Source: a virus (lineage: Duplodnaviria > Caudoviricetes). From it: a stretch of 52,571 nucleotides of DNA. The notes beneath the pieces were generated by a model that was not told the DNA's origin, made no database searches, and worked only from the letters and a program-made list of their open reading frames with translations. The position numbers and the translations under genes are program-made. Within the stretch, counting starts at the first letter, position 1; each line of letters opens with the position of its first letter. Positions 17,066-22,748 of the stretch are shown piece by piece. The stretch is from the IMG/VR virus record IMGVR_UViG_3300032893_000065, positions 1 through 52,571 of that record, one strand, 5' to 3'.

Positions 17066-17365
17066 CTAGCTCCTCATCGGCCTATCTGCCTCGGGGAGGA
17101 TGCCGAGGACGTGTCGCTCGTGGAAGGTCACGCGGTCGCCCAGGTGGGCCTCACCGTTGAGCGGCTCGTTGTCGAGCGTTCCCTGGAGAACGCCGTTCTC
17201 GATGGTCTCGATGCGGACCCACATCCGCTCCACGTCCCCGTTCGAGAAGATGAACCCGACCTTCGCCCAGTCCCCCGGCTTCAGTGCGGCCTTCTCCTCC
17301 TTTGAGGGGATGTGAAACGTCTTCGGATAGCGGGTGTTTCGTCTCACTCCATCGACGAGTTTCAT
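17066..17365 (-). CDS. DUF2314-like protein (in-frame Cys-rich extension possible from 17566)
   Basis: ERMWVRI..GTLDNEP..LGDRVTF..HVL motif; GGAG RBS. Confidence 0.65.
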   Translation of the reverse strand: MKLVDGVRRNTRYPKTFHIPSKEEKAALKPGDWAKVGFIFSNGDVERMWVRIETIENGVLQGTLDNEPLNGEAHLGDRVTFHERHVLGILPEADRPMRS

Positions 17366-17579
17366 GGCTTCTCCGGTATCTCTGGGATACGGGCCGGGGC
17401 AAACGTGTTCCACCCACGGCTTCCCGCATCTCCTGCACATGACTGCGGGTCGTTCTACGCGGGGCAGGAAGCCACCGAGACCGCCTATGCTTCGTTCCAC
17501 CGCCCTTGCCTGCGTGCATTCGTGGCACTCGCAACGGGGGCGCTGCTGCTCCGACCAGGGCCTCATGGCTTCTCCGGTA
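17362..17579. repeat. 17-bp direct repeat TCATGGCTTCTCCGGTA (17362, 17563)
   Basis: Exact copies 201 bp apart; each is an RBS plus ATGA on - strand. Confidence 0.8.
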
Positions 17580-17799
17580 GTTCTGGGGCGCCCATGGCGC
17601 GGCAGAGGTGGACGAGGAGCTTCGAGCGTTGGTCGGAGGTGGGGCTCGGGTTCGTGGCGAGAGCGGCGACGACCTTGAGGTTCTCTCCGAGGGCAGCGAT
17701 GCAGTCGCCGTAGGAGGGGGCGTAGGCCCGGCCGGGCAGTTTCAGGCTGCTGCCCGGGTGGACCCAGCCGCACCAGGGGCAGAGCTTCGGGTCGCTCAT
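17563..17799 (-). CDS. Hypothetical protein
   Basis: CPWCGWVH; operon packing. Confidence 0.6.
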   Translation of the reverse strand: MSDPKLCPWCGWVHPGSSLKLPGRAYAPSYGDCIAALGENLKVVAALATNPSPTSDQRSKLLVHLCRAMGAPELPEKP

Positions 17800-18147: not shown

Positions 18148-18639
18148 TCACTCCGAGAGCTTCACCGTCGTGTTGAAGTTCTCCGCATACATCGAAATGC
18201 AGTACCCGCACTTGAGAGACCCCGGTACGGTCGGGATGTGGCGGTAGCACTCGCAAGGCCAGTCCCACTCTTCGGCCATCCGATGGATGACCGGAATGAT
18301 CGCGCTGTCATTCTCTGCCAGGGCGCGCTCGATGCAAACGTCGCGGGAGGCCTCGATGACCTTCCACTCGACGGCGCCTTCGTAGCGAGTCGTCCACTCC
18401 TTGCGGCGCTTCTCCGTGACGTTCGTCGCGTCCACGACGATGCGCTCGTGGCCGGCGAGACGGAGGGCCTCGACCATGGTGAAGGCCATGGCCCACACGT
18501 AGGGCTCGGCCGGGGCATAGAAGCGGTGCCCGTGCAGAGCGAGGCGGATCGAGTCGGGGTTCACGATGGGCCAGCCGGTGGTCTTGGCCCAGGAGGTCTT
18601 GCCGGATCGCGGGAGGCCGACGGTGACGTAGAGCTTCAT
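18148..18639 (-). CDS. P-loop kinase, AAA_33 / polynucleotide kinase-like
   Basis: VGLPRSGKTSWA, NPDSIR, IVVDATN...RR, CIERA: pattern of the T4 PNK-type kinase domain; no phosphatase domain. Confidence 0.85.
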   Translation of the reverse strand: MKLYVTVGLPRSGKTSWAKTTGWPIVNPDSIRLALHGHRFYAPAEPYVWAMAFTMVEALRLAGHERIVVDATNVTEKRRKEWTTRYEGAVEWKVIEASRDVCIERALAENDSAIIPVIHRMAEEWDWPCECYRHIPTVPGSLKCGYCISMYAENFNTTVKLSE

Positions 18640-18830
18640 CTCTTCTCCTCGGTGCCCACGTTCTTGAGGAGCACTCCCGAGACCATGGGGTACCCGTCTG
18701 CACCCGTGACGACCGAGAGAGCTACGGCTTGGTCTGCCGCGAGAGGGCCAGAGACGACGATGACCCGTTCCTTAAGGCCATCCATACCGCACCTTACCGA
18801 TGCCCACTCCACTCCTTGCTTTTCCGTCAT
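18636..18830 (-). CDS. Hypothetical protein
   Basis: ATGA-coupled both ends. Confidence 0.55.
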   Translation of the reverse strand: MTEKQGVEWASVRCGMDGLKERVIVVSGPLAADQAVALSVVTGADGYPMVSGVLLKNVGTEEKR

Positions 18831-19021
18831 GTCCGCCTCACGAGCTTGAGTTGCACGACGCTGTCGAGATCCGAGAGGTCGATGTCGATCGAGACGACCG
18901 GAGTGCGGTCGGGCCAGACGAAGTACGGGAGCCGGGCGCGCACCATGTCGATGGTGGTGATCTCTCCTCCGGGGATCTCGCCCTTGCAGAGGCGGACGAA
19001 GGCCCGGAGGGCAGGGATCAC
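18827..19021 (-). CDS. Hypothetical protein
   Basis: GTGA-coupled. Confidence 0.55.
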   Translation of the reverse strand: MIPALRAFVRLCKGEIPGGEITTIDMVRARLPYFVWPDRTPVVSIDIDLSDLDSVVQLKLVRRT

Positions 19022-19248
19022 GGTGTTTCCTTCGGGAGGAGCCCGGCTCGGGCGTCTTGTTTCCGGGCCTCCGCTTCCATGGGGGCGATGAATCGACCGG
19101 CGCTGATGATGGCAGCGGCAACCGAAATCTCACCATCCAACCGTTCATCCCAGGCCCTCATGCCAGAAGCGCCCTCGATGGTCACCTCGGCGTAGAAGTA
19201 GTGACCGTCTTGGAAAATCTCGACGCGGACGAGCGGTTTCTCTCTCAT
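19018..19248 (-). CDS. Hypothetical protein
   Basis: Operon packing. Confidence 0.6.
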   Translation of the reverse strand: MREKPLVRVEIFQDGHYFYAEVTIEGASGMRAWDERLDGEISVAAAIISAGRFIAPMEAEARKQDARAGLLPKETP

Positions 19249-19623: not shown

Positions 19624-19733
19624 CGGATCACCCTTGGAACTCCCGGCGCATGCGGCTGATGTGGCGCTGGCCGCGATACCCAGATTCGTAGGCCGGCGAC
19701 CGTGACGAGTACAATGAGAATGAGAGCTTTCAT
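19620..19733 (-). CDS. 37-aa membrane/signal peptide coupled to Ro60 stop (not in ORF track)
   Basis: MKALILIVLVTVAGLRIWVSRPAPHQPHAPGVPRVIR; ATGA overlaps at both ends. Confidence 0.55.
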   Translation of the reverse strand: MKALILIVLVTVAGLRIWVSRPAPHQPHAPGVPRVIR

Positions 19734-21373
19734 CCCCGGATGAAGTCCGCCAGGAGCGCCGGGGCGGAAGCATCGAAGCCCACGAAGTCCATCATTCCGA
19801 AATCGTTCGGATCCGCGATCGTGAACTCGTTCGCGGTGAAGGCCACGACCGCCAGCTTCGCCGGGATCTTCTGGTGCTCCCGGTAGCGCTGGAGCGCCTG
19901 CGTCGGGTGCATCGTGCCGGCCCAGGTCTCCGAGTCCGTGTAGACGACGAAGGCATCCACCTGAGTGTCATGCTGGTCGGCCCAGATCATCGGTAGGGCG
20001 CAGTCGGTTCCCCCGAAGGGGAACCTCTGCATGATCTTCACTGCGTCGTCCAGCCGGGTCTTCGGGGAGATCGGGACCTGGACGAGCCGCTCAGCGAAGG
20101 CGAGCATCCCGTACTGCGGCTCGGTGCGAGCCGTGACCATCGCCATCGCCGCCGCGGCCTCGCGGCATGTGAGCGGCGTGCCGGCGACCGAGCCTCCGTC
20201 CATGGAACTGGAGACGTCGATCGCTAGCAGGGTTCGCATCCCGGTCGGAACGATGTGCTGGAAGCTCTCGTAGAAGGCATCGTTCAGGGCATCGATCACC
20301 TTGGGCGAGGGCTGCCAGGTGAGGCTGCCCCGGATTCCGCGGCCCCCGGAGTAGACCGACTGCGCGAGCAGGATCCCGAGAGGGTGAACGCGGGCCTTCT
20401 TCATGCCCTCCTTGTTCGCGAGCCGGGAGACGACGTAGCTCTCGGCCGCGGACATGGGCGCGAGGAGGCCGATCGAAGCCATCTTCCCGAGGTTCCGGAT
20501 CATGGCCGTATACGGCATCCCCTGCCCGGACATGAGCAGCGCCTCCCAAACCTCGGGGGAGTTGAGGAGGTTCGTCGGCACGCACTCCCTCGGAATCCCG
20601 TACTGCGCGATGAGAGAGGCCGCCTCCAGCGGGCTGGGCGCTGCCTGCATGCGCTCGAAACCCTTGATGATCTCCGGGAGAGCATCGGGAACCGCGGGGT
20701 ACTTGTCGATGCGCTCGCCTCTCTTCGTAGCCCGCTTCACCTCGAAGGCGTCGGGCTTCCCGTGGGTCACCCAGCGGTAGATCGGGCCGCGCTCCACCTG
20801 GGAGACGGGGTGGGCCTTGCGGAGGAGATCCCGGTGGGACCAGCCGTTCCGCTGCTGGTACTTCACGGTCATCAGGGCGAGGGGATCCGCCCGGTAGTTC
20901 TCGTACCAGTTTCGGATGGCGCGCCGGGTCACCGGGCCCCAGCCGCCGAAAGCCTTCACGTTCTCGGCAAGCTGGAAGATGTGAGTGCCGATGCGGCAGA
21001 CCTTGGGGGTCATCGCCGCGGCGAGCCGGCGAGTCTCCTCGTCTCCATGCTTGAGGCACATGGCGAGCGCGAAGATGGCCGGGTCGTTCTTGGGGGCGAG
21101 AGCCTGGTCCGAGACGTCTACGATCCGGCGCACGACTCGCGGGCCGTCGATCTTGATGAGGCCGAGAACGCCCTCCGCGTTCTTCGCCGTGAGCTTCTTC
21201 TCGTCCGCGTAGTAGGAGCCCTTCTCGCTCCCGAGGATGAGGAAGCGGTCGAGCATCTGCCAGGGCGAGACGGCGAAGGAGAAGCCGCCGGCAGAGTTCG
21301 GGACCTGCGCGGAGCCAGGGATCTTCTCGGTCTGGGGAGTCTTGCGAGTCGAGTAGAGCCGTCCGTAATCCAT
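19730..21373 (-). CDS. rsr: Ro60-related RNA-binding protein (TROVE + vWA)
   Basis: NSAGG..LDRFLILGSE.GSYY; RIGTHIF; KYQQRNGWSHRDLLRKAHP; MIRNLGKM; RVHP; MIDAS DVSSSM, GGTDCALPM, YTDSETW; GFD; GGAGG RBS. Confidence 0.97.
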   Translation of the reverse strand: MDYGRLYSTRKTPQTEKIPGSAQVPNSAGGFSFAVSPWQMLDRFLILGSEKGSYYADEKKLTAKNAEGVLGLIKIDGPRVVRRIVDVSDQALAPKNDPAIFALAMCLKHGDEETRRLAAAMTPKVCRIGTHIFQLAENVKAFGGWGPVTRRAIRNWYENYRADPLALMTVKYQQRNGWSHRDLLRKAHPVSQVERGPIYRWVTHGKPDAFEVKRATKRGERIDKYPAVPDALPEIIKGFERMQAAPSPLEAASLIAQYGIPRECVPTNLLNSPEVWEALLMSGQGMPYTAMIRNLGKMASIGLLAPMSAAESYVVSRLANKEGMKKARVHPLGILLAQSVYSGGRGIRGSLTWQPSPKVIDALNDAFYESFQHIVPTGMRTLLAIDVSSSMDGGSVAGTPLTCREAAAAMAMVTARTEPQYGMLAFAERLVQVPISPKTRLDDAVKIMQRFPFGGTDCALPMIWADQHDTQVDAFVVYTDSETWAGTMHPTQALQRYREHQKIPAKLAVVAFTANEFTIADPNDFGMMDFVGFDASAPALLADFIRG

Positions 21374-21394
21374 TGGTTCCTCCGGTACAGGGAT

Positions 21395-21524
21395 GGGTCA
21401 AGCAAGTGATGTGGCTGCCGTTTGGTGCTCTACCACTGAGCTACGTCAGTCTCTCGACTGGCGACGGGAATTGAACCCGCGACCACCCTCTTGGCAGGAG
21501 AAGACAGCCACTTCGGCCTGACCC
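21395..21524 (-). ncRNA. yrlA: YrlA-type Y RNA with permuted tRNA-Gly(GCC)-like domain (unit Y1)
   Basis: Ro-binding stem GGGUCAGGCCGAAG / CACUUGCUUGACCC; upper stem GUGGCUGUC/GGCAGCCAC; T arm, closed acceptor stem, D arm; just upstream of Ro60. Confidence 0.9.
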
Positions 21525-21536
21525 TTTCCCAAAAAC

Positions 21537-21604
21537 GGATCGAGCAAGTAGCGATCGAGGGGTTTCCGGTTGCGAGAGGTAACCCTCAACCTTCGGCCCG
21601 ATCC
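21537..21604 (-). ncRNA. Short Y RNA-like unit Y2
   Basis: GGAUCGGGCCGAAGGUUGAGGGUUA...CCCUCGAUCGCUACUUGCUCGAUCC. Confidence 0.85.
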
Positions 21605-21614
21605 TTTCCGCGAG

Positions 21615-21686
21615 ACCGAGCAAGTGAGCGGTCGTGGGAGGTTCCTTAGCTGCGTGGCAGGGATAACCCATGACCTTCGGCCCGGT
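21615..21686 (-). ncRNA. Short Y RNA-like unit Y3
   Basis: ACCGGGCCGAAGGUCAUGGGUUA...CCCACGACCGCUCACUUGCUCGGU. Confidence 0.85.
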
Positions 21687-21697
21687 TCTTTCTACGA

Positions 21698-21803
21698 GAC
21701 TGAGCAAGTGATGGCCGTGGGAGATCCACCGACACGGGGTTGCCCCCGCCGTGTGGCAATCTCCTGAATGTGGAGACGGTAACCCACGACCTTCGGCCCA
21801 GTC
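21698..21803 (-). ncRNA. Y RNA-like unit Y4 with larger structured insert
   Basis: GACUGGGCCGAAGGUCGUGGGUUA...CCCACGGCCAUCACUUGCUCAGUC; internal GGGG-GCAA-CCCC and UCUCC/GGAGA hairpins. Confidence 0.85.
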
Positions 21804-21805
21804 CT

Positions 21806-21901
21806 TCACTTGTGCCTCGCCCCGAAGTCGTCTTCGAGAATGCAGGCCCAGATGTAGATGGCGAGGAAAAGAAGGATGAACCCGACGACCGCTCCTGCCA
21901 T
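21806..21901 (-). CDS. 31-aa single-pass membrane peptide inside Y RNA array (not in ORF track)
   Basis: MAGAVVGFILLFLAIYIWACILEDDFGARHK; GAGG RBS; fills the Y5-Y4 gap. Confidence 0.65.
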   Translation of the reverse strand: MAGAVVGFILLFLAIYIWACILEDDFGARHK

Positions 21902-21918
21902 AGCGGACCTCGATTCAA

Positions 21919-21981
21919 GAACGAGCAAGTGGATAGTCGAGGGGGATCGTCCAAGGATAACCCTCAACCTTCGGCCCGTTC
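21919..21981 (-). ncRNA. Short Y RNA-like unit Y5
   Basis: GAACGGGCCGAAGGUUGAGGGUUA...CCCUCGACUAUCCACUUGCUCGUUC. Confidence 0.85.
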
Positions 21982-21988
21982 GCGAAGC

Positions 21989-22017
21989 ACCCTAAGCCTA
22001 TTCATTCCGAATTGCAA
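21989..22017 (-). promoter_or_regulatory. Sigma70-type promoter for Y RNA-Ro60 operon
   Basis: TTGCAA (22017-22012), 17 nt, TAGGGT (21994-21989); predicted +1 falls at about the first G of Y5 (21981). Confidence 0.7.
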
Positions 22018-22088
22018 TCCCCGACATCGTCCCTCGCGGGTGTAAGCGTACTTCCACCCGGCTTTCGAGTAGGAACCGCGGAGGACGG

Positions 22089-22748
22089 ATGGCCGAAGTG
22101 ACTCCCGAACAGCCGAGTCAGGTCGTCGTGGGCGAAGACGACAAGCTGGAGTGGGTGGATTCCCGCTCGGAAGAAGAGCTACGGGAGGCCCTGGAGAGAG
22201 CGGAAGCCTACCGGATACGGCTCGGCAACGAGACCGATCGCGCCTTCGTCGTCTCCACATGGTCCCAGGGCTACTGGAAGGGCAGCCTTTGGGGTCATCG
22301 GGTGCGCTGGCAGCAGTTTGGACCCCGCATGCGGGTCATCTGCGACGGGATTTTGCAGCATGCGACGGTCATGGTGGCCTGTCCACCCGACGATCACGAG
22401 GAAATCCTAGGGTATATCGTCTTCCAGAGGCACTGGAAGCCGCCCAAGGGCCATCCTGAACCCATCGCAGGCGGTCTCGACCTCTTCCACTTCGCCTATG
22501 TGAAGCCTTTCGCCCGCTTGAAGGGCGTTTTTCGGGCACTTCTCGTCGCTTCGGGTCTTCCGGACCGCCTCCGGGGCGTGATCGTGACCTGTCCCACCCG
22601 ACTTTGGTTCTCGAACTCGAATTTCAGAGGTCTAGACGCCCGTTTTCCCGCGACAATCCATGATCCCTTCCTCCCGATGTACTACCTGAGGAACAATCCC
22701 TTCCCGAAGACGATCCCAATTCACCCGGACAGGAACAATGACATATAG
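22089..22748 (+). CDS. GNAT-like protein
   Basis: EILGYIV..LFHFAYVKPFARLKGVFRALL resembles acetyl-CoA-binding motif A; GGAGG RBS. Confidence 0.6.
   Translation: MAEVTPEQPSQVVVGEDDKLEWVDSRSEEELREALERAEAYRIRLGNETDRAFVVSTWSQGYWKGSLWGHRVRWQQFGPRMRVICDGILQHATVMVACPPDDHEEILGYIVFQRHWKPPKGHPEPIAGGLDLFHFAYVKPFARLKGVFRALLVASGLPDRLRGVIVTCPTRLWFSNSNFRGLDARFPATIHDPFLPMYYLRNNPFPKTIPIHPDRNNDI

What the first reader, a model, noticed from the sequence alone, without database searches (positions are those of the whole stretch)
21426..21502. Y1 holds a complete circularly permuted tRNA-Gly(GCC) including the anticodon loop
Seen 5' to 3': anticodon arm UUCUC-CUGCCAA-GAGGG, variable loop UGGUC, T arm GCGGG-UUCAAUU-CCCGU, acceptor 3' strand CGCCAGU, C-GAGA-G cap, acceptor 5' strand ACUGACG (one A-C mismatch), UA, D arm GCUC-AGUGGUA-GAGC, A. 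All spacings are canonical. The break is at tRNA position 26/27, where the Ro-binding stem attaches, and there is no CCA end. Established: described YrlA RNAs mimic D, T and acceptor arms, with the anticodon-stem position leading to the Ro stem. Inference: keeping a YU-GCC-AA loop makes this a non-chargeable tRNA-Gly mimic, a possible decoy for anticodon nucleases, synthetase or modification enzymes. The anticodon stem has two G-U pairs, so an alternative fold is possible.
Basis: partly seen in the sequence, partly recalled or inferred. Interest (0 to 1): 0.85.

Follow-up and report, generated by a model that had tools for sequence, protein, structure and literature searches.

The report
Phage Y RNA with anticodon arm
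A phage small RNA next to its Ro60 gene is a rearranged tRNA look-alike that keeps an anticodon-type loop, a feature shared by many related RNAs but so far labelled as something else.

Summary
Window 21424-21502(-) is the tRNA-like module of a YrlA-class Y RNA. It is the last of five tandem Y-RNA modules, directly upstream of a phage Ro60 gene (19730-21373, -).

ARAGORN finds no tRNA in the natural order. After re-permutation it calls tRNA-Gly(gcc), against 0 calls in 2000 dinucleotide shuffles.

One correction: relatives place the break at tRNA position 28/29, not 26/27. A 3-bp hairpin (29-31/39-41) carries the 7-nt loop CUGCCAA. Positions 42-44 pair with 26-28, which follow the D arm.
- The 3' segment makes both the 27-43 and 28-42 pairs in 53 of 60 relatives.

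The feature is common in Ro-linked relatives, not unique to this RNA. A hairpin-blind model found the exact hairpin in 40 of 92 modules, with U33 in 39 of 40 and A38 in 36 of 40; the middle triplet varied in the larger sets tabulated. Two relatives have this hairpin plus a separate long variable arm. Published work calls the hairpin a 'V' arm and says YrlA lacks an anticodon loop.

The 'Gly' identity rests on the triplet alone. A decoy role is untested, and 'non-chargeable' is unproven.

The parts
19730..21373 (-). Ro60 (Rsr) gene, 547 aa
   Evidence: Pfam vWA_Ro60 5.3e-65 and TROVE 2.1e-39. tblastn finds Ro-like proteins in 355 phage records, best 44.9% identity.
21395..21524 (-). Whole Y1 RNA (YrlA type): basal stem, Ro-binding region, tRNA-like module. 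It ends about 20 nt before the Ro60 start codon.
   Evidence: Rfam YrlA RF02553 at 21393-21523(-): 43 bits, E 4.1e-08, below the gathering score of 69. Fold z-score -3.19.
21511..21517 (-). GCCGAAG, a match to the GNCGAAN0-1G motif that Chen 2014 links to Ro60 recognition
   Evidence: Read. The motif definition comes from PMC4201824, section 6. The same motif is seen in all five modules.
21488..21500 (-). Hairpin: tRNA positions 29-31 (CUC), 7-nt loop 32-38 (CUGCCAA), 39-41 (GAG)
   Evidence: Rfam's YrlA model treats these 13 nt as an insertion. The stem covaries in relatives, with 6, 34 and 42 sequences changed on both sides.
21501..21502 (-). This is the alternative fold and is not conserved.
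   Evidence: The 5' flank makes both pairs in only 6 of 60 relatives.
21485..21487 (-). Positions 42-44 (GGU); pairs with 26-28
   Evidence: Rfam alignment. Covariation: 34 sequences (28-42) and 27 sequences (27-43) changed on both sides.
21481..21484 (-). Variable loop, positions 45-48 (GGUC). C48 can pair with G15 (Levitt pair).
   Evidence: Read. GGUC is the commonest variable loop in relatives, 25 of 65.
21464..21480 (-). T arm (5 bp, loop UUCAAUU)
   Evidence: 97.6% of cells paired across 102 relatives.
21444..21463 (-). Closed acceptor stem: 3' strand 21457-21463, 6-nt cap 21451-21456, 5' strand 21444-21450. 6 of 7 pairs, one A-C mismatch.
   Evidence: Acceptor pairs are 7 of 7 in 48 of 78 relatives and 6 of 7 in 15 of 78.
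21427..21443 (-). U8-A9 and the D arm (4 bp, loop AGUGGUA)
   Evidence: 92% of cells paired across relatives.
21424..21426 (-). Positions 26-28 (ACC); completes the anticodon stem with 42-44
21411..21419 (-). 3' strand of the upper Y stem; pairs with 21503-21511
21537..21607 (-). Y2 module (no tRNA-like domain)
   Evidence: Shares the GGGCCGAAGG...ACUUGCUC frame. Folds as a stem with an internal loop.
21610..21689 (-). Y3 module
   Evidence: Sub-threshold Rfam hits: ceN72-3 25.1 bits, Y_RNA 19.4 bits.
21694..21805 (-). Y4 module
   Evidence: Sub-threshold Rfam hits: ceN72-3 33.2 bits, Y_RNA 31.7 bits.
21918..21982 (-). Y5 module
   Evidence: Sub-threshold Rfam hit: ceN72-3 32.5 bits.

Best explanation
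The feature is the effector (tRNA-like) module of a phage-encoded YrlA-class Y RNA. The window is a complete 52.6-kb phage genome from a metagenome. It carries a Ro60 gene preceded, on the same strand, by five tandem Y-RNA modules. The Ro60-proximal module (Y1) is the only one with a tRNA-like domain.

Anatomy, shown by sequence and comparison. A basal stem carries the Ro60-recognition motif. From it the chain runs:
- through a 3-bp hairpin with a 7-nt anticodon-type loop (tRNA 29-41);
- then 42-44, a 4-nt variable loop and the T arm;
- then an acceptor stem closed by a 6-nt cap;
- then U8-A9, the D arm and 26-28;
- and back into the stem.
Because 26-28 pair with 44-42 and can stack on the hairpin, the RNA rebuilds a full-length anticodon arm. 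The Ro60-binding stem leaves through a nick at 28/29. It is therefore a complete tRNA shape, circularly permuted, without a free CCA end in the primary transcript.

Mechanism, inferred from published work on other YrlAs. Ro60 holds the basal stem. [quoted passage not shown]

The anticodon-type loop is under selection in a large subset of Ro-linked YrlAs. Y32, U33, R37 and A38 are kept, the stem covaries and 34-36 vary. So it is most likely a recognition or architecture element (a U-turn loop at the tip of the long arm), not a leftover.

The partner that reads the loop is unknown.
For: Context:
- One-contig genome of 52,571 bases.
- Terminase, and Ro60 with TROVE and vWA domains.
- YrlA model hit at 43 bits, with the hairpin as a 13-nt insertion and GGU paired to ACC.

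Completeness: re-permuted, ARAGORN calls tRNA-Gly(gcc), against 0 of 2000 shuffles.

Relatives found with model R1. Filter chain:
- 227 aligned hits, 207 unique.
- 112 do not overlap an ARAGORN tRNA.
- 93 have both hairpin strands aligned.
- 78 have 3 of 3 stem pairs.
- 65 have a 7-nt loop, from 53 loci.
Among those 65: U33 62, R37 59, A38 57 and Y32 52. They carry 32 different middle triplets and 21 stem types.

Model-free register scan: a 3-bp stem with a 7-nt loop, 7 nt before the T stem, occurs in 47 of 105 hits. No other register exceeds 27.

Hairpin-blind model R2: 40 of 92 hits have the exact hairpin abutting position 42, against at most 15 in any other register. Among the 40: U33 39, R37 38, A38 36.

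Covariation on a MAFFT alignment not fitted to the structure:
- 84% of cells paired, against 31-45% when partners are slid.
- 0 of 500 shuffles reach the covariation score.
- Changes on both sides occur in all three hairpin pairs and in 28-42 and 27-43.

Break position: the 3' segment makes both pairs in 53 of 60; the 5' flank does so in 6 of 60.

Not a variable arm: two relatives (L117:3330-3432, L131:4134-4235) re-permute to a cloverleaf with this arm plus a separate long variable arm.

Generality: 65 of 78 re-permuted relatives are called tRNAs, 53 of them with the anticodon equal to the loop triplet.
Against: - There are no RNA data. Transcript ends, processing, folding and Ro60 binding are all unshown for this phage.
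- The Rfam YrlA score is below the family's gathering threshold (43 against 69).
- In this RNA the 5-bp hairpin fold is as stable as the split-stem fold.
- The hairpin is not universal. 52 of 92 hairpin-blind hits lack the exact form, and S. Typhimurium YrlA has none (Wang 2018), so it cannot be essential to YrlA function in general.
- 7 of 65 loops have A34, and one triplet reads as a stop anticodon. The triplet itself therefore looks weakly constrained or unconstrained.
- Relatives came from models seeded with five or six phage RNAs and from the 160 best-scoring Ro60 loci, not from all of them.
- The shuffle controls do not correct for relatedness of the sequences.
Confidence: 0.78

Rival explanations
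1. One reading: a self-contained 5-bp anticodon hairpin (UUCUC/GAGGG) with the break at 26/27, giving a five-way junction.
For: The pairs exist in the window. ARAGORN accepts this join. Its computed energy is slightly better, -50.7 against -49.6 kcal/mol.
Against: Two of the five pairs are G-U. In relatives the 5' flank makes both extra pairs in 6 of 60 (Watson-Crick only: 1 of 60), while the 3' segment does so in 53 of 60 (Watson-Crick only: 49 of 60). Pairs 27-43 and 28-42 covary with the 3' segment. Rfam's model pairs GGU with ACC.
Confidence: 0.15
2. The hairpin is the equivalent of a tRNA variable arm (the 'V' stem-loop of Chen 2014). Its loop only resembles an anticodon loop by chance.
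For: [quoted passage not shown] Wang 2018 (bioRxiv 10.1101/312249, passage of section 5) states that YrlA lacks the anticodon loop.
Against: - The hairpin lies 5' of the 42-44 strand, not between 44 and 48.
- The loop is 7 nt in 65 of 78, with a Y32-U33-NNN-R37-A38 profile.
- Two relatives carry a separate long variable arm in the proper place as well.
- ARAGORN reads the hairpin as the anticodon arm in 53 of 78 re-permuted relatives.
Confidence: 0.08
3. The loop is an inert relic of the tRNA (or tRNA dimer) from which the Y RNA arose. It is kept only for hairpin stability and nothing reads it.
For: The dimeric-tRNA origin model (Sim and Wolin 2018, as cited in Wang 2018, discussion passage) predicts an anticodon arm of the first tRNA upstream of the T arm. 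Triplets vary freely and include non-natural ones: A34 in 7 of 65 and a stop-type triplet. Many YrlAs lack the hairpin.
Against: U33 (62 of 65), A38 (57 of 65) and loop length are held while the 3-bp stem has turned over into 21 types. That pattern is what purifying selection on the loop would give. The family shares the UUAUC lead-in and near-identical T and D arms, which argues for one origin and against many recent births.
Confidence: 0.15
4. Functional sub-hypothesis: the Ro60-tethered anticodon loop is a bait or competitive inhibitor for host anticodon-loop nucleases, or for other anticodon-loop readers, as part of a phage RNA-damage counter-measure.
For: - Hughes 2020 (PMC7790460, section 17 passage) proposes YrlA as a competitive inhibitor of an anticodon nuclease.
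- Iyer et al. 2021 (PMC7824862, section 3.4.9 passage) place phage Ro/TROVE with a tRNA-like partner among RNA-repair systems.
- A polynucleotide-kinase-like P-loop kinase lies two genes downstream of Ro60.
- Loci with two YrlAs carry different triplets, for example GCA and UUG in L005, and GUC and GCG in Myrna.
- Many Ro60 genes sit inside tRNA arrays.
Against: Nothing here tests binding or cleavage. S. Typhimurium YrlA, which has no such loop, prompted the same proposal. Triplets include non-natural anticodons. No RNA ligase was recognised near Ro60 in this phage.
Confidence: 0.2
5. After RNase P cleavage at the cap and CCA addition, the RNA becomes a two-piece tRNA that can be aminoacylated or enter translation.
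For: The acceptor stem is 7 pairs long with 6 paired. M. smegmatis YrlA, with a 7-bp stem, is cleaved by RNase P in vitro and in vivo and gains CCA; its authors say it 'could potentially be aminoacylated' (PMC4201824, sections 8 and 10 passages). The module has all the other tRNA parts.
Against: The long Ro60-binding stem would project from the anticodon stem. Positions 1-72 are A-U and 3-70 are U-A, whereas bacterial GlyRS identity is recalled (not checked here) to need G1-C72 and U73. No charging has been shown for any YrlA.
Confidence: 0.06

Closest known systems
YrlA of mycobacteriophages and M. smegmatis (Chen et al. 2014, PMC4201824; Rfam RF02553)
   Same: Encoded just upstream of Ro60 on the same strand. 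GNCGAAN0-1G motif near the 5' end. T arm, then a closed acceptor-like stem, then a D arm. A stem-loop upstream of the T arm. ET08, used in that paper's Figure 1D, has the same hairpin: CUC, a 7-nt loop, GAG.
   Different: The published label for the hairpin is 'V' (variable arm). Here it is shown to be the lower half of a split anticodon arm with an anticodon-loop signature. The window RNA scores below Rfam's gathering threshold (43 against 69). It is the last of five Y modules.
S. Typhimurium YrlA (structure described in Wang et al. 2018, bioRxiv 10.1101/312249)
   Same: L-shaped tRNA mimic with a closed acceptor stem. The anticodon-stem equivalent is formed by the segments before the variable loop and after the D arm, and it leads into the Ro60-binding module.
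   Different: That RNA 'lacks the anticodon loop' and has a 6-bp acceptor stem (paper's words). The window RNA has a 13-nt hairpin inserted in the 5' strand of that stem and a 7-position acceptor stem.
D. radiodurans Yrn1 (Chen 2014, section 6)
   Same: A Y RNA that can be drawn with a potential anticodon arm.
   Different: In Yrn1 the loop has 6 nt, the arm order differs, there is no full D arm, and the authors regard it as independently evolved. Here the loop has 7 nt and all arms are canonical.
Permuted tRNA genes of some algae and an archaeon (mentioned in Wang 2018, discussion; details recalled)
   Same: The 3' half of the tRNA is encoded before the 5' half.
   Different: Those are processed to ordinary mature tRNAs. 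Here the ends are a long Ro60-binding stem and no processing to a contiguous tRNA is expected. Not tested.
Tandem (dimeric) tRNA genes
   Same: The T arm of one unit followed by the D arm of the next gives the same order. Chen 2014 discarded such hits as false positives. My models also hit them: 104 of 227 hits overlapped ARAGORN tRNAs, and 13 of 117 hits lay in tRNAs on both sides.
   Different: The window has no tRNA genes at all. The two acceptor strands pair with each other across a 6-nt cap, and the unit is enclosed by a Y-RNA stem.

Membership tests
YrlA-class bacterial/phage Y RNA (Rfam RF02553; Chen 2014) | Encoded next to a Ro60 (TROVE) gene, same orientation | tested here: met
   Y1 ends about 20 nt before the Ro60 start codon; both are on the minus strand.
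YrlA-class bacterial/phage Y RNA (Rfam RF02553; Chen 2014) | GNCGAAN0-1G motif near the 5' end, within a stem formed by the 5' and 3' ends | tested here: met
   GCCGAAG at 21511-21517(-). The terminal stem is predicted.
YrlA-class bacterial/phage Y RNA (Rfam RF02553; Chen 2014) | tRNA-like domain in the order T arm, closed acceptor-like stem, D arm, with the conserved T-loop and D-loop nucleotides | tested here: met
   Rfam alignment over model positions 1-114. UUC..A T loop, G18-G19, U8, and G15 with C48 read.
YrlA-class bacterial/phage Y RNA (Rfam RF02553; Chen 2014) | Score at or above Rfam's gathering threshold (69 bits) | tested here: not met
   43 bits, E 4.1e-08; no hit at gathering. 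Named phage YrlAs, including ET08 from the founding paper, also score only 36.6-42.2 bits. The threshold therefore excludes this phage subgroup as a whole.
YrlA-class bacterial/phage Y RNA (Rfam RF02553; Chen 2014) | Bound by Ro60; modified by TruB/DusA | not testable with these tools
   No RNA or protein data; no RNA sequencing run holds the stretch.
Canonical tRNA | Contiguous cloverleaf with free 5' and 3' (CCA) ends | tested here: not met
   ARAGORN gives 0 genes in the window and in the natural-order element. There is no RF00005 hit. The acceptor is closed by a cap and no CCA is encoded.
Canonical tRNA | All four arms with canonical lengths, including a 7-nt anticodon loop with U33 and R37 | tested here: met
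   After re-permutation ARAGORN draws a standard cloverleaf; 0 of 2000 shuffles do.
tRNA-Gly(GCC) specifically | Body sequence closest to tRNA-Gly(GCC); GlyRS identity elements | tested here: inconclusive
   Among 532 ARAGORN tRNAs from the loci, the best matches are Gly(tcc), Thr, an undetermined ARAGORN call, Arg and Val; Gly(gcc) genes rank 8th and lower. Host tRNAs are unknown. C35 and C36 are present, but 1-72 is A-U; the identity rules are recalled, not checked.
tRNA variable arm (the 'V' reading) | Stem-loop located between positions 44 and 48 | tested here: not met
   The hairpin precedes 42-44. Two relatives have a true long variable arm in addition.

The most novel reading that the evidence does not exclude
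A large subgroup of Ro60-linked Y RNAs in phages and bacteria are complete, circularly permuted tRNAs. Their anticodon loop is kept by selection while the triplet diversifies. The Ro60 RNP would then display an anticodon-loop bait that senses, titrates or is processed by anticodon-loop readers, such as tRNA-targeting defence nucleases, loop-modifying enzymes or synthetases. Phages such as this one would use it against tRNA-directed immunity. [quoted passage not shown]
Probability: 0.2. Interest if true: 0.8.

Novelty: new variant of a known kind. Interest (0 to 1): 0.6.

Why it matters
Y RNAs of the YrlA type are known tRNA mimics, but their effector partners are unknown. The held literature describes them as lacking an anticodon loop.

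A large share of Ro-linked YrlAs, including those of well-studied mycobacteriophages, carry a conserved anticodon-type loop on a split anticodon stem. This has three consequences.
- It changes the structural model of the family.
- It fits the proposed origin from tandem tRNAs.
- It narrows the search for partners to proteins that read the anticodon arm. This is directly testable in laboratory phage-host pairs (M. smegmatis or Gordonia terrae phages).

There is also a practical point. Such RNAs are mis-annotated as tRNA genes; one case is gene 166, 'tRNA-Asp', of phage Myrna.

Tried and rejected
- Rfam at gathering thresholds gave nothing for the whole window.
- The search for related loci with the single Ro60 protein found no relative. 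I repeated it with a four-protein alignment.
- No RNA holder is listed among sequencing runs. The one read-laying run showed only DNA contigs: two identical to the window and possibly its source, plus short contigs matching only 21463-21498. It gives no information on expression or ends.
- The promoter and terminator scan of 21250-22350 found 0 of each.
- Energies of the alternative folds do not discriminate.
- The nearest-tRNA comparison gave no Gly-specific signal.
- The protein atlas gave nothing usable for ORFs 18636-19148 and 17066-17773. tblastn of ORF 18636-19148 against phages found no match. PHROGs gave no family for 8 of 10 neighbouring ORFs. No RNA ligase, RtcB or phosphatase was recognised near Ro60.
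- I considered and rejected a pair of decayed tRNA genes: there are no tRNAs in the genome, the unit is enclosed by a Y stem, and the arrangement is conserved with covariation.
- I considered and rejected a chance cloverleaf (0 of 2000 shuffles).
- Two reviews (PMC10870794, PMC6047535) are not held.
Chen 2014's Supplemental Figure S1 and Tables S1 and S2, and figures in general, may already draw these hairpins; I saw only text and legends.
- The claim that the anticodon-loop reading is not in print rests on searches, and on the passages read. It covers only the held library.
- Rows dropped before counts: hits overlapping an ARAGORN tRNA by more than 20 nt (104 of the 227 aligned hits; after de-duplication 95 of the 207 unique hits, leaving the 112 counted). 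At least 6 of these carry the UUAU/GUUA lead-in and are probably YrlAs that ARAGORN miscalls. Also dropped: 51 of the 201 bacterial hits not kept in alignment A5, duplicate rows, and hits with partial model coverage.
Full report
**What is in the sequence.**
The feature lies on the minus strand.
- a stem-loop with the 7-nt loop CUGCCAA;
- a 5-nt variable stretch;
- a 5-bp T arm with a UUCAAUU loop;
- a 7-nt acceptor 3' strand and a 6-nt cap;
- a 7-nt acceptor 5' strand (one A-C mismatch);
- UA, then a 4-bp D arm with a 7-nt loop, then A26.

ARAGORN finds no tRNA in the window or in the element in its natural order. When a script re-joins the two halves, it calls tRNA-Gly(gcc) and draws a standard cloverleaf. 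None of 2000 dinucleotide-preserving shuffles of the re-joined 71-mer was called.

**Surroundings.**
- The window is the whole held genome: one contig of 52,571 bases.
- It has a terminase and no tRNA genes.
- It occurs in DNA runs labelled wetland metagenome. It is an uncultivated phage.
- ORF 19730-21373(-) is a Ro60 protein, with Pfam vWA_Ro60 at 5.3e-65 and TROVE at 2.1e-39.
- Upstream of Ro60, on the same strand, lie five modules. They share a GGGCCGAAGG-type 5' strand and an ACUUGCU-type 3' strand.
- Four modules give sub-threshold matches to Rfam Y_RNA and to a nematode Y-like family. The Ro60-proximal module matches YrlA (RF02553) at 43 bits, E 4.1e-08, below the gathering score of 69.
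- Ro-like proteins occur in 355 phage records, mostly of Mycobacterium and Streptomyces. The best identity is 44.9%, in Gordonia phage Cashline.

**A close relative in an unexpected place.**
blastn of the Y region found one colinear 81-nt match, at 86% and 84% identity, in Mycobacterium phages Myrna and Phabba.
- The match lies inside their tRNA arrays, about 36 kb from their Ro60 genes.
- The permuted order is the same there, and the loop reads CUGUCAA.
- In Myrna's record the 5' part is annotated 'tRNA-Asp'. Rfam's tRNA model does not hit it, and Phabba's record omits it.
- Both phages also have a second YrlA-like module next to Ro60.

**Where the break is.**
Rfam's alignment treats 13 nt (CUC, the loop, GAG) as an insertion. 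It pairs the following GGU with the ACC that follows the D arm. In tRNA numbering this gives 27-43 and 28-42 as C-G pairs supplied by the 3' segment, and A26-U44.

I fetched Ro60 loci from three sources:
- five named phages;
- 80 viral contigs;
- 80 bacterial contigs.

I built a covariance model from five phage RNAs and searched all loci.
- In the 60 relatives with a clean 7-nt-loop hairpin and both triplets aligned, the 3' segment makes both pairs in 53. The 5' flank does so in 6.
- On a MAFFT alignment of 102 hits that was not fitted to any structure, 28-42 changes on both sides in 34 sequences and 27-43 in 27 sequences.
- In the same alignment, 26-44 is mostly a non-standard pair, as in tRNAs.

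The break is therefore at 28/29. The anticodon stem is split, with the Ro60-binding stem leaving through the nick. In this particular RNA the two folds have equal computed energy.

**Is the hairpin an anticodon arm?**
With model R1, the filter chain ran: 227 aligned hits, 207 unique, 112 free of ARAGORN tRNAs, 93 with both strands aligned, 78 with 3 of 3 stem pairs. Of those 78, 65 have a 7-nt loop. In those 65:
- position 33 is U in 62, position 37 is a purine in 59, position 38 is A in 57, and position 32 is a pyrimidine in 52;
- positions 34-36 are close to uniform, with 32 different triplets;
- the stem occurs in 21 types.

A model-free scan of registers found 47 of 105 hits with a 3-bp stem, a 7-nt loop and 7 nt to the T stem. 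No other register exceeded 27.

All three hairpin pairs covary, and 0 of 500 shuffles reach the observed covariation score.

Re-permuted at 28/29, 65 of 78 relatives are called tRNAs by ARAGORN, 53 of them with the anticodon equal to the loop triplet. 48 of 78 have 7 of 7 acceptor pairs.

Two bacterial relatives give a class II cloverleaf with this arm and a separate long variable arm. This excludes the variable-arm reading for the hairpin.

**Control for ascertainment.**
- 120 hits at E up to 1e-5 gave 117 unique hits with upstream sequence, and 92 of these were free of ARAGORN tRNAs.
- 40 of the 92 have the exact hairpin abutting position 42, against at most 15 in any other register.
- Among the 40: U33 in 39, R37 in 38, A38 in 36.
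- Others have 5-, 6- or 8-nt loops or no hairpin.

The feature is common but not universal.

**Is it a tRNA-Gly?**
Only by the triplet. Against 532 ARAGORN tRNAs from the loci, the best scorers are a mix of Gly(tcc), Thr, an undetermined ARAGORN call, Arg and Val; Gly(gcc) genes rank 8th and lower. Host tRNAs are unknown. The closest Ro60 relative (L008, 61% identity) also has GCC in its loop, on a different stem; that is a single case.

**What it most likely does.**
Shown: identity as a YrlA-type module, and its anatomy.

Inferred from the papers read:
- Ro60 binds the 5' strand motif.
- The tRNA-shaped module meets tRNA-recognising proteins. [quoted passage not shown]
- The M. smegmatis YrlA has a 7-bp acceptor stem and is cut by RNase P and gains CCA in vivo. 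The 7-position acceptor stem of this RNA therefore makes 'non-chargeable' unproven.

The conserved loop signature, on a covarying stem, argues that something selects for an anticodon-type U-turn loop. What reads it is open.

A competitive-inhibitor role against an anticodon nuclease has been suggested for YrlA in general (PMC7790460, section 17). A polynucleotide-kinase-like gene two genes downstream of Ro60, and Ro60 genes embedded in tRNA arrays, fit an RNA-damage setting. They do not test it.

**Novelty.**
- Wang 2018 states that YrlA lacks the anticodon loop. Its discussion cites a dimeric-tRNA origin in which the anticodon arm of the first tRNA would lie just here.

I found no paper in the held library that describes the loop signature or the split anticodon stem. 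Figures, supplements and two reviews could not be seen.

I rate this a new variant of a known kind: a known family, with a corrected and extended structural model.

**Limits.**
- There are no RNA data of any kind.
- Relatives are the best-scoring 160 Ro60 loci, plus five named phages.
- Counts are of sequences, not of independent events.
- The models were seeded from phage RNAs.

Noticed in passing
window 21537-21982 (-): Four further Y-RNA modules (Y2-Y5) stand in tandem upstream of Y1. They have no tRNA-like domain. They score closest, below threshold, to metazoan Y_RNA (31.7 bits) and a nematode Y-like family (33.2 bits). Five Y modules for one Ro60 gene is a large set.
   Followed up: partly
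window 21806-21901 (-): A 31-codon ORF encoding a hydrophobic peptide sits between modules Y5 and Y4, with GAGG a few bases upstream. Its stop codon abuts the start of Y4.
   Followed up: partly
window 18148-18639 (-): A 163-aa P-loop kinase lies two genes downstream of Ro60. Pfam AAA_33 at 1.4e-10; PHROG 'polynucleotide kinase' at 2.3e-14. Its start overlaps the stop of an unassignable 170-aa ORF (18636-19148) by 4 bases.
   Followed up: partly
L142, L160, L121, L154, L103 (bacterial); L084, L015 (viral): Many Ro60 genes sit inside large same-strand tRNA arrays, with up to 32 ARAGORN tRNAs in 7.6 kb (L142). Most are MAGs titled Myxococcota-type; some are viral contigs. Overall: 532 tRNAs in 58 of 168 sources.
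   Followed up: partly
L001:2977-3083 (Mycobacterium phage Myrna) and L002:2998-3084 (Phabba): Myrna gene 166, annotated 'tRNA-Asp', is the 5' part of a YrlA-like RNA with a Y-type stem. It lies in the tRNA array 36 kb from Ro60. Rfam's tRNA model does not hit it. Each phage has a second YrlA-like module beside Ro60 (L003:1255-1340, L004:1251-1336).
   Followed up: yes
L117:3330-3432 and L131:4134-4235: These YrlA-like modules, once re-permuted, have both a full anticodon arm and a long class II variable arm. Their loop triplets (UAC, UUC) do not belong to class II tRNAs, to my recollection.
   Followed up: partly
L076:2818-2902, L141:2819-2907, L149:2863-2947, L142:4901-4986, L095:714-795, L133:2294-2408: ARAGORN calls a tRNA on the 5' part of these probable YrlA modules. 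They have the UUAU/GUUA lead-in, and the D-arm side lies outside any tRNA. Such RNAs are therefore likely to be mis-annotated as tRNA genes.
   Followed up: partly
window 17066-17773 (-): The C-terminal ~90 residues of this 235-aa ORF match hypothetical proteins of 22 phage records. These include the Ro60-encoding phages Big4 and Pumpernickel, and CcrColossus, which PMC12135203 names as a Ro60 phage.
   Followed up: no
window 21463-21498: In all three metagenome runs, short contigs match only this 36-base stretch (anticodon loop to T arm) with 4-5 differences, then continue unlike the window. They are probably tRNA or tRNA-like genes of other organisms in the same samples.
   Followed up: no
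L008:1473-1564: The viral contig with the closest Ro60 (61% identity) has its YrlA-like module 1.4 kb upstream of Ro60, with ORF-like sequence between. Its loop triplet is also GCC, but the hairpin stem differs, ACC/GGU.
   Followed up: partly
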